Virus record (IMG/VR): IMGVR_UViG_2713897190_000002
Source: a virus
Lineage: Duplodnaviria > Heunggongvirae > Uroviricota > Caudoviricetes
Strand: one strand, 5' to 3'
DNA: 38,367 nt
The notes beneath the pieces are model-generated. The model was not told where the DNA came from and ran no database searches. It saw nothing but the letters and a program-made list of their open reading frames with translations. The position numbers and the translations under genes are program-made. Positions 37,309 to 38,367 of this stretch are shown piece after piece (position 1 is the stretch's first letter; each line of letters opens with the position of its first letter).

Positions 37309-37914
37309 ATGAGTACAGCACTCGCAACGCTGGCAGGGAAGCTGGCTGAACGTGTCGGCATGGATTCTGTCGACCCACAGGAACTGATCACCACTCTTCG
37401 CCAGACGGCATTTAAAGGTGATGCCAGCGATGCGCAGTTCATCGCATTGTTGATCGTCGCCAACCAGTACGGCCTTAATCCGTGGACGAAAGAAATTTAC
37501 GCCTTCCCTGATAAGCAGAACGGCATTGTTCCGGTGGTGGGCGTTGATGGCTGGTCCCGCATCATCAATGAAAACCAGCAGTTTGATGGTATGGACTTTG
37601 AGCAGGACAATGAATCATGTACATGCCGGATTTACCGCAAAGACCGCAATCATCCGATCTGCGTTACCGAGTGGATGGATGAATGCCGCCGCGAACCATT
37701 CAAAACCCGCGAAGGCAGAGAAATCACGGGGCCGTGGCAGTCGCATCCCAAACGGATGTTACGGCATAAAGCCATGATTCAGTGTGCCCGTCTCGCCTTC
37801 GGATTTGCTGGTATCTATGACAAGGATGAAGCCGAGCGCATTGTCGAAAATACCGCATACACTGCAGAACGTCAGCCGGAACGCGACATCACTCCGGTAT
37901 TAGACGTCAACTAG
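37309..37914 (+). pseudogene. bet: bet (Red beta recombinase), 3'-truncated by IS insertion
   Basis: MSTALATLAGKLAERVGMDSVDPQEL... matches lambda Bet for about 195 aa, then diverges (ERDITPVLDVN-stop), 201 aa versus 261 aa. Confidence 0.8.
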
Positions 37915-38367
37915 TTTTGCCGACTCGCGCCAACTATACTGGCCGCACCCTTCAGTGCGACATCAAGTCGCGCTTGTTACTGCCTTCGCTGTCTTTTTCC
38001 TGTAGCTTTCACCTTTCAGTTCGAACATATATCCGTGATGGATCAGCCGGTCTGCCGCCGCCACCGCCATAGTCTCATCCACGAAGATGCTGCCCCACAT
38101 GCTGAACGGATGGTTACTGGTTATCACCAGGCTCCCACGTTCATAGCGATGCGCTATTAACTCGAACAGTACTCCCGTTTCGGCGCTGTCGCGTTTGACA
38201 TAGCCAAGATCATCCACCACTATCACCCGGTAGCGATCCAGTTTCAGTAGCAGCTCATTCAGTTTCAACTGCGCTCTGGCTTTACGTAGTTCCTGCAACA
38301 ACTCTCCTGCGCTGTAGAACCGGGCCCGGTAGCCCTGGCCTACTACGCCATCCACGATCGCTGCCGC
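37900..38367 (-). mobile_element. IS21-family insertion sequence (partial, runs off the window) carrying the istB 3' end
   Basis: The - strand ORF 37963..38355+ encodes an IstB-like C-terminus (VIVVDDLGYVK...LKGESYR); bet homology ends abruptly about 60 nt before the IstB stop. Confidence 0.6.
37963..38367 (-). CDS. istB: IstB-like ATP-binding transposition helper (C-terminal part; 5' end outside the window)
   Basis: Translation contains DDLGY and GESYR motifs typical of IS21 IstB; the gene continues beyond the window end. Confidence 0.6.
   Translation of the reverse strand, partial: AAAIVDGVVGQGYRARFYSAGELLQELRKARAQLKLNELLLKLDRYRVIVVDDLGYVKRDSAETGVLFELIAHRYERGSLVITSNHPFSMWGSIFVDETMAVAAADRLIHHGYMFELKGESYRKKTAKAVTSAT

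What the first reader, a model, noticed from the sequence alone, without database searches (positions are those of the whole stretch)
37840..38367. IS21-family element interrupts bet, so the prophage is probably Red-deficient and possibly cryptic
The bet frame matches lambda Bet for about 195 aa, then diverges and stops after 201 aa (lambda Bet is 261 aa). Immediately beyond, on the opposite strand, is the 3' end of an IstB-like gene that runs off the window. Loss of the bet C-terminus, and possibly of exo, int and xis beyond it, would impair recombination and perhaps excision.
Basis: partly seen in the sequence, partly recalled or inferred. Interest (0 to 1): 0.45.

Follow-up and report, generated by a model that had tools for sequence, protein, structure and literature searches.

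The report
ISEc10 insertion splitting prophage bet gene
A known, active E. coli jumping gene (ISEc10) has inserted cleanly into the recombination gene bet of an otherwise intact phage-21/lambda-like prophage; this probably abolishes the phage's own recombination system but removes nothing else, so it is an ordinary event.

Summary
From 37898 to the window end the sequence is the istB-distal end of ISEc10 (IS21 family), reversed, and 470/470 nt identical to the CFT073 copy. I defined the IS ends and a 6-bp target duplication from a filled/empty site pair. I then predicted the far junction and found it exactly, in the same draft assembly that carries the near junction: IS left end + CTCCGG + the rest of bet, followed by exo ... 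xis, int and icd, 10.2 kb at 100% identity to an IS-free sister prophage. This is therefore a simple insertion, and exo, xis and int are not lost. The rest of the window differs from that IS-free prophage by 3 SNPs in 37.9 kb and is at least 99.5% identical to deposited phage genomes, so "cryptic" has no sequence support. Loss of Red function is likely but inferred: the whole Red-beta C-terminal domain, which binds Exo and SSB and is required in vivo, is removed. Verdict: already known kind, low interest. One unexplained side observation: the same 5 bp of bet (GTTAAC) is a recurrent breakpoint for at least nine independent deletions and a second IS.

The parts
37007..37303 (+). gam, intact (98 aa), immediately upstream of bet in the pL operon
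   Evidence: Pfam Gam 211.7 bits, full length 1-98/98. Annotated as a Gam family protein in sister prophages.
37309..37914 (+). Truncated bet ORF: Bet residues 1-197 (bet-derived DNA 37309-37897) plus LDVN and a stop codon read from the IS end
   Evidence: The intact Bet is 261 aa in CFT073 and EC5654.
37892..37897 (.). Target-site duplication copy, CTCCGG. The second copy lies at the far junction, outside the window.
   Evidence: The far-junction contigs L005/L006 read ...CGTCTCATA|CTCCGG|TTAACGATG. A 6-bp duplication (AGCAAC) is also seen at the CFT073 ead site when compared with the empty site in EC5654.
37898..38367 (-). ISEc10 (IS21 family), istB-distal (right) end. This is the first 470 nt of a 2410-bp element, oriented opposite to bet and cut by the end of the window.
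   Evidence: 470/470 nt identical to the CFT073 copy L001:8878-11287. RefSeq annotates these copies as 'IS21-like element ISEc10 family'.
37898..37945 (-). Right terminal inverted repeat of ISEc10 (48-nt arm)
   Evidence: the repeat finder I1: arms at L001 8878-8925 and 11240-11287, 48 nt, 71% complementary, exactly at the inferred boundaries. The outer 13 nt match 11/13 (TATGAGACGACAA / TATTAGACGTCAA).
37963..38367 (-). 3' part of istB (helper AAA+ ATPase), C-terminal 134 codons. The gene continues beyond the window.
   Evidence: Pfam IstB_IS21 126.5 bits. The full gene (251 aa) is present in L003 at 10655-11410(-), followed by istA. Full-length IstB scores 266.7 bits against the NF038214 cut-off of 200.

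Best explanation
A complete copy of the known insertion sequence ISEc10 (IS21 family, 2410 bp, istA-istB) transposed into codon 197 of the bet gene of a phage-21/lambda-like prophage integrated at icd. It duplicated 6 bp (CTCCGG) and lies antisense to the pL operon. This is a simple insertion and nothing was deleted: the last 64 codons of bet, then exo, xis and int continue on the other side of the IS. The consequence shown directly is a Bet protein of residues 1-197 plus LDVN. This protein keeps the DNA-annealing N-terminal domain (1-177) but lacks the entire three-helix C-terminal domain, which binds lambda Exo and host SSB. The inferred consequence is that the prophage's own Red recombination pathway is non-functional in vivo. 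Also inferred: the prophage remains inducible and excisable, because Int and Xis are intact, its N-type antiterminator should carry pL transcription through the IS, and Red is dispensable for lambdoid growth in rec+ hosts.
For: - **IS identity and boundaries:**. The copy is 470/470 nt identical to the CFT073 ISEc10. It has 48-nt terminal inverted repeats. A filled/empty site comparison gives exact ends and a 6-bp duplication.
- **Family:** IstA scores 227 bits against the NF033546 cut-off of 160, and IstB scores 266.7 against the NF038214 cut-off of 200, both for the identical full-length copy.
- **Simple insertion:** the far junction was predicted from the model and found exactly. The chimeric 92-aa ORF P0001 was recovered. 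Its contigs L005/L006 begin with 76-77 nt of the IS left end, then CTCCGG, then the rest of bet, then 10.2 kb at 100% identity to the IS-free EC5654 locus through exo, xis, int and icd. L005 comes from the same assembly (GCA_002465245.1) as near-junction contig L003.
- **Lineage marker:** the 201-aa product occurs on 37 contigs / 86 index blocks.
- **Backbone intact:** 3 SNPs in 37,898 bp against EC5654, none disruptive. The window is at least 99.5% identical to phages PhiR57_1 and ev017, and its structural arm is 99.6% identical to phage 21. ev017 is an isolated temperate coliphage (PMC11923282).
- **Function of the lost domain:** the Red-beta CTD (183-261, ordered from Thr-195) binds Exo and SSB. 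Deleting only its last 11 residues abolishes dsDNA and ssDNA recombination in vivo (PMC6393309). The lambda numbering transfers because residues 1-177 are identical to 7UJL.
- **ISEc10 is active:** new insertions were selected next to lpp in CFT073 (PMC7482066).
- **Read-through:** terminator-like sites in the pL direction are weak and not in excess of shuffled sequence. An N-peptide gene is present.
Against: - The window itself ends 470 nt into the IS. Continuity to the far junction is shown in sister assemblies (1-2 SNPs from the window over 10.6 kb), not in the window's own genome.
- All contigs break in the IS, and 217 bp of the istA 5' region is not covered by any junction contig. Physical linkage of the two junctions through one IS copy therefore rests on the matching target duplication.
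- No complete genome (0 of 5426) contains the junction.
- Loss of Red function, N-mediated read-through and inducibility are inferences. None was tested.
- Another prophage in the same cell could supply Bet in trans.
Confidence: 0.87

Rival explanations
1. The IS marks a rearrangement or deletion rather than a simple insertion. Under this reading the prophage arm beyond bet (exo, xis, int) has been lost or moved, leaving a trapped, cryptic prophage.
For: The window ends inside the IS, and every contig that carries the junction also ends in or just before the IS. ISEc10 is multi-copy, with up to 22 places per genome, so recombination between copies is possible in principle.
Against: The far junction carries the same 6-bp duplication and resumes bet at exactly the next base. 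It continues through exo ... xis, int and icd at 100% identity, and it is found in the same assembly as the near junction. A deletion or an inversion between two IS copies would not leave matching duplications on both sides of a single target.
Confidence: 0.05
2. The junction is an assembly artefact: a chimeric join of a prophage contig to a repeat.
For: Short-read assemblies do break and sometimes misjoin at IS copies. No complete genome carries the junction.
Against: The identical junction and its 201-aa product are present on 37 contigs from NCBI, ENA and Logan assemblies. The join falls precisely at the IS terminal base. The reciprocal junction, with its target duplication, exists on 8 contigs.
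Confidence: 0.02
3. The insertion is functionally silent for recombination. Either the truncated Bet, which retains the annealing domain, still works in vivo, or Bet is supplied in trans by another lambdoid prophage in the same genome.
For: The N-terminal domain (1-177) alone oligomerises and anneals DNA in vitro (PMC9512822, listed; PMC6393309). E. coli genomes carry up to 5 bet copies.
Against: C-terminal truncations as small as 11 residues abolish both ssDNA and dsDNA recombination in vivo (PMC6393309). Supply in trans would not restore the function of this prophage's own allele. The bet copy number in the window's genome is unknown.
Confidence: 0.06

Closest known systems
ISEc10 (IS21 family), for example the copy in the sister prophage of E. 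coli CFT073 (NC_004431.1, L001:8878-11287)
   Same: The sequence is identical over all 470 nt in the window and over 2116 nt in sister contig L003. It has the same istA-istB organisation, the same 48-nt terminal inverted repeats and the same 6-bp target duplication.
   Different: The target and orientation differ. In CFT073 the IS sits in an ead/Ea22-like gene about 2 kb downstream of an intact bet and is co-oriented with the pL operon. Here it sits in bet codon 197 and is antisense.
Laboratory ISEc10 insertions next to lpp in CFT073 (PMC7482066)
   Same: The same element moves within the same kind of strain background and alters expression or function of the target gene.
   Different: Those insertions were selected under antibiotic pressure and act on expression from outside the coding region. 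The insertion here is intragenic, occurs naturally and is fixed in a lineage.
Engineered Red-beta C-terminal truncations (Red-beta 1-250, Red-beta 1-177) of phage lambda
   Same: They share an identical N-terminal domain. Both lose the Exo- and SSB-binding C-terminal domain.
   Different: The natural allele ends at residue 197 and carries a 4-residue IS-encoded tail. Its phenotype has not been measured.
Phage 21 / Escherichia phages ev017 and PhiR57_1 (lambdoid, integrating at icd)
   Same: The backbone is at least 99.5% identical to ev017 and PhiR57_1 across the window, the structural arm is 99.6% identical to phage 21, and the prophage is integrated next to icd.
   Different: Those genomes carry an intact bet and no IS at this site.

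Membership tests
IS21 family insertion sequence (ISEc10) | istB gene encoding an AAA+ helper ATPase (IstB_IS21) | tested here: met
   The window fragment (134 aa) scores 126.5 bits on Pfam PF01695 against a cut-off of 24.1. On NCBIfam NF038214 it scores 153 bits against a cut-off of 200, only because it is truncated. The identical full-length copy scores 266.7 bits.
IS21 family insertion sequence (ISEc10) | istA gene encoding the IS21-type DDE transposase, directly upstream of and overlapping istB on the same strand | tested here: met
   This lies outside the window. It is present on sister contig L003 (istA 11407-12705(-), next to istB 10655-11410(-)). In the identical CFT073 copy, IstA scores 227 bits against the NF033546 cut-off of 160, and istA and istB overlap by 4 nt.
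IS21 family insertion sequence (ISEc10) | Terminal inverted repeats at the exact ends of the element | tested here: met
   48-nt arms, 71% complementary, at L001 8878-8925 and 11240-11287. The boundaries were fixed independently by comparing the empty and filled sites and by eight further left-end junction ORFs, P0055-P0062.
IS21 family insertion sequence (ISEc10) | Short target-site duplication (4-8 bp for the family; the range is recalled from ISfinder's family description, not checked here) | tested here: met
   6 bp at two independent sites: AGCAAC in the ead gene and CTCCGG in bet. A 7-bp reading cannot be excluded at either site, because the adjacent base coincides.
IS21 family insertion sequence (ISEc10) | Terminal dinucleotides 5'-TG ... 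CA-3' (recalled from memory as typical of the family) | tested here: inconclusive
   The ends read 5'-TATGAGACG ... CGTCTAATA-3'. TG occurs 2 nt in from the left end, and the right end has TT at the equivalent position.
Lambda Bet / Red-beta (RecT-family annealase) | N-terminal annealase domain matching the bet_lambda equivalog | tested here: met
   TIGR01913 scores 170.5 bits against a cut-off of 76.95. Residues 1-177 are identical to PDB 7UJL.
Lambda Bet / Red-beta (RecT-family annealase) | C-terminal three-helix domain (about residues 195-261) that binds Exo and SSB | tested here: not met
   The ORF leaves bet after codon 197 and stops at codon 202. The CTD-coding DNA lies on the other side of the IS. 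The gene is therefore a disrupted member of the family.
Intact, inducible lambdoid prophage (as opposed to cryptic) | Complete set of head, tail, lysis, replication, immunity and int/xis genes without disruptions | tested here: inconclusive
   By sequence, everything except bet matches an IS-free sister prophage and deposited phage genomes, and int and xis are intact on L005. Inducibility itself cannot be tested with these tools.

The most novel reading that the evidence does not exclude
The ISEc10 insertion sits on a recurrent breakpoint in lambdoid bet. The evidence for this is:

- **Clustered events:** within 5 bp around the GTTAAC at codons 197-198 there are this ISEc10 insertion, an independent IS3-family insertion, and at least nine independent deletions in different prophages.
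- **Deletion pattern:** the deletions share the identical right end (T|AACGATG). Their left ends lie 0.34-10.5 kb upstream, and the joints have only 1-3 nt of microhomology.
- **Possible meaning:** a fixed end combined with a variable end could point to a site-specific break or nick in bet, for example from a nuclease encoded by a competing phage or by the host. Such a break would repeatedly disarm the Red system of resident prophages.
Probability: 0.25. Interest if true: 0.5.

Novelty: already known. Interest (0 to 1): 0.1.

Why it matters
In itself this matters little. It is a textbook IS insertion by a catalogued, active element into a non-essential prophage gene, and the allele is already present (unremarked) in dozens of public draft assemblies. 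It has three practical uses. It is a lineage marker for a group of E. coli whose prophage backbone matches ST73-type strains such as CFT073. It shows how to resolve an IS-broken contig pair without long reads. And it corrects the inference that the prophage has lost exo, int and xis. The only point of wider interest is the clustering of independent breakpoints at the same 5 bp of bet. If that reflects a specific DNA break, it would bear on how prophage recombination functions are lost.

Tried and rejected
- **Exact-pattern scans for the junctions:** the near junction gave 0 hits in genome contigs and viral contigs. The predicted far junction gave 0 hits in metagenome contigs. The junctions were reached through exact protein look-ups instead.
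- **Complete genomes and isolated phages:** no complete E. coli genome (0 of 5426) and no phage record contains the junction.
- **Relation to the CFT073 ISEc10 copy:** I considered that the IS might derive from an inversion or intramolecular transposition involving the ISEc10 that sits downstream in the CFT073 sister prophage. I rejected this because the closest IS-free genome, EC5654, has no IS in this prophage and because the far junction shows a clean target duplication.
- **Shared motif at the deletion partners:** I considered that the left partners share an extended motif with the bet site (...ATGAAACC), as pseudo-sites of a recombinase or pseudo-ends of a transposase would. I rejected this because alignment scores against 817 control TA sites give P = 0.26.
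- **GTTAAC as a general breakpoint:** none of the other 18 GTTAAC sites in the 56-kb reference coincides with the other collinearity breaks in the six degraded prophages I mapped. That is a small sample.
- **Unbiased census of partial bet copies:** the spread BLAST sampled only 3 partial copies out of 60 rows and was uninformative.
- **Mirror-image events:** the scan for events with a fixed left side gave one doubtful 17-nt hit in viral contigs. There are too few data to judge asymmetry.

Full report
**1. The observation**

The region reads as the first-stage reader described it.
- The ORF 37309-37914 (+) encodes 201 aa. It matches Pfam RecT and the NCBIfam bet_lambda equivalog well above their curated cut-offs.
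- Residues 1-177 are identical to lambda Red-beta in PDB 7UJL.
- gam (37007-37303) lies immediately upstream and is intact.
- On the minus strand, 37963-38367 is the C-terminal 134 codons of an IstB-type ATPase gene that runs off the window.
- Megablast of 37300-38367 against 5,426 complete E. coli genomes matches intact bet genes at 100% identity only up to query position 599 (window 37898). No complete genome contains the junction.
- The remainder (37899-38367) matches, at 100% and full length, copies that RefSeq annotates as 'IS21-like element ISEc10 family' in 583 records.

**2. Exact anatomy of the junction**

CFT073 carries a sister prophage with an intact bet and an ISEc10 in an ead/Ea22-like gene about 2 kb downstream. 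The closest genome to the window, EC5654, has the same ead gene uninterrupted.
- Comparing the filled and empty sites gives the target GAAG[AGCAAC]TCATT. The element is 2410 bp and reads TATGAGACG...CGTCTAATA, with a 6-bp duplication. A 7-bp duplication cannot be excluded, because the adjacent base coincides.
- The repeat finder independently places 48-nt inverted repeats, 71% complementary, exactly at these boundaries.
- Eight further chimeric ORFs (P0055-P0062) break at the same left-end base.
- In the window, bet DNA ends at 37897. The IS starts at 37898 with TATTAGACG..., which is the reverse complement of the istB-distal end. The IS is therefore antisense to bet.
- All 470 IS bases in the window are identical to the CFT073 copy.
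- The ORF thus encodes Bet 1-197 (codon 197 is GTA instead of GTT, still Val) followed by LDVN and a stop.
- Full-length IstA and IstB of the identical copy pass NCBI's IS21 equivalog cut-offs: 227 against 160 and 266.7 against 200.

**3. What lies beyond the window**

- The 201-aa product, with its IS-encoded tail, is an exact-sequence tag for this junction. It is on record in 86 index blocks and on 37 contigs from NCBI, ENA and Logan assemblies. This makes the allele a lineage marker.
- All contigs read end in or just before the IS, as expected for short-read assemblies of a multi-copy element. One of them (L003, GCA_002465245.1 contig 4) extends 2116 nt into the IS through istB into istA, and is identical to the CFT073 copy.
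- Using the simple-insertion model, I predicted the far junction as ...TTGTCGTCTCATA|CTCCGG|TTAACGATGAAACC. I also predicted a chimeric ORF that begins in the IS left end and reads into the bet frame.
- A protein search with that hypothetical ORF returned P0001, which is 92 aa and 100% identical, including the IS-derived leader.
- Its contigs (L005 and L006) start with 76-77 nt of the IS left end, followed by CTCCGG and the rest of bet. L005 comes from the same assembly as L003.
- From there they continue for 10.2 kb with zero mismatches to the IS-free EC5654 locus: exo, DUF1317, DUF1382, TraR/DksA-like, ead..., xis, int, icd.
- The event is therefore a simple insertion with a 6-bp target duplication. 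exo, xis and int are intact.
- Two limits remain. Linkage of the two junctions through one IS copy is inferred from the duplication, and 217 bp of istA is not covered by the junction contigs. The window's own genome differs from these assemblies by 1-2 SNPs over 10.6 kb.

**4. Is the prophage cryptic?**

- The window is collinear with the EC5654 prophage over 37,898 bp with 3 substitutions: one silent, one F162L in a porin moron, and one intergenic.
- RefSeq annotates that prophage with a full lambdoid set: terminase, portal, capsid, tail, J, lysis, Q, nin region, O/P, cII, cro, cI, N and the pL operon. Only a partial side-tail-fibre gene and a small DUF1364 remnant are flagged.
- The same DNA is at least 99.5% identical across its length to the deposited phage genomes PhiR57_1 (host ECOR13) and ev017. 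The structural arm is 99.6% identical to phage 21.
- ev017 is listed as an isolated temperate coliphage (PMC11923282).
- The prophage sits next to icd with int and xis adjacent.
- No sequence evidence therefore supports 'cryptic'. Inducibility remains untested.

**5. Functional consequence**

- What is shown: the product lacks everything after residue 197.
- From the literature: Red-beta has an N-terminal domain (1-177) for oligomerisation and DNA annealing. Its C-terminal domain (183-261, ordered from Thr-195) binds lambda Exo and the SSB C-tail. [quoted passage not shown]
- The inference, rated likely: this prophage's Red pathway is non-functional.
- Established lambda genetics (my own knowledge): red mutants grow on rec+ hosts, and N-modified transcription from pL reads through polar insertions.
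- The prophage encodes an N-peptide protein. Terminator-like sites in the antisense IS are weak and not in excess of shuffled sequence. Expression of exo, xis and int after induction is therefore probably retained. This is inference only.
- ISEc10 is demonstrably mobile in CFT073 (PMC7482066), which makes a recent transposition into bet unremarkable.

**6. Comparison and novelty**

The element is ISEc10 itself. The target is a canonical lambda-type bet, and the outcome is an ordinary insertional disruption. The allele already sits in public assemblies, where its two halves are annotated as 'Bet, partial' and 'hypothetical protein, partial'. I rate it as already known, with low interest.

**7. 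Side observation (unexplained, partly followed up)**

The protein search for the far junction also returned many other chimeric or internally deleted Bet C-terminal fragments.
- Of roughly 24 distinct events, 9 join foreign or upstream sequence at exactly N198: Bet1-68, Bet1-74, Bet1-84, Gam1-62, DUF2528 1-97, and four unrelated leaders. Two join at V197, three at P190 and three at L203/204.
- At the DNA level, six loci from different prophages and chromosomal sites all resume collinearity at the same base (T|AACGATG, inside GTTAAC, 1-2 nt from the ISEc10 duplication). Their left ends lie 0.34-10.5 kb upstream in direct orientation.
- A pattern scan independent of the protein query (though it fixes the break position, so it finds new partners rather than testing the clustering) found two more left partners.
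- Six of seven left partners carry T|A at the break, and microhomology is 1-3 nt.
- One further junction at GTTAACG is the end of an IS3-family element in the same prophage type.
- A test for extended similarity between the left partners and the bet site was negative (P = 0.26).
- Other GTTAAC sites were not breakpoints in the six loci mapped.
- Ascertainment through 90%-identity protein clusters favours junctions near the C-terminus. It cannot, however, produce single-nucleotide recurrence.
- I have no supported mechanism. A recurrent site-specific break or nick is the most interesting reading that remains open.

Noticed in passing
window 37895-37902 (bet codons 197-198, GGTTAACG); loci L010, L012-L020, L022, L023: Recurrent breakpoint. 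At least nine independent deletions in different lambdoid prophages share the identical right end T|AACGATG at Bet N198. Their left ends vary, lying 0.34-10.5 kb upstream, and 6 of 7 left partners have T|A at the joint. Smaller clusters occur at P190 and at L203/204. No motif is shared by the left partners (P = 0.26). The mechanism is unexplained.
   Followed up: partly
L008:1-80 and L009:1-80 (same prophage type, contig starts): The end of a multi-copy IS3-family element (...GGCGCTGACA) abuts GTTAACGATG of bet. This is a second, independent IS insertion within 3 bp of the ISEc10 site.
   Followed up: partly
L001:8878-11287 (CFT073 sister prophage): CFT073's copy of this prophage has an intact bet, but it carries its own ISEc10 in an ead/Ea22-like gene, and its cI (LexA-family repressor) is annotated as split or incomplete. 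The same IS has therefore hit the same prophage family twice, at different sites and in opposite orientations.
   Followed up: partly
window 22731-26704: Cargo (moron) genes sit in the late region of the prophage: a TonB-family protein (22731-23057, minus strand), the serum-survival lipoprotein gene iss (23538-23831, plus strand) and an OmpC/NmpC-type porin (25622-26704, plus strand). The porin carries the window's only non-synonymous difference from EC5654 (F162L, nt 26107).
   Followed up: no
window 1-100 and upstream (L007:1-3410): The window starts exactly one base after the stop codon of sitD. The sitABCD iron/manganese transporter operon therefore abuts the tail-fibre end of this icd-integrated prophage.
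   Followed up: no
window 2370-2733 and 27858-27947: In the near-identical EC5654 prophage, RefSeq flags a side-tail-fibre N-terminal fragment and a DUF1364 remnant as pseudogenes. The same arrangement is present in the deposited phage PhiR57_1 (100% coverage, 99.9% identity), so it need not impair viability.
   Followed up: partly
window 31963 (between cII and the cro-like gene): A single C/G substitution is private to the window when compared with EC5654, L003 and L004. It lies in the cII-cro intergenic region, where lambda has regulatory sites. Its effect is unknown.
   Followed up: no
proteins P0055-P0062: Eight further chimeric ORFs begin in the ISEc10 left end and read into unrelated targets. 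They give a ready set of ISEc10 insertion sites for defining its target preference.
   Followed up: no
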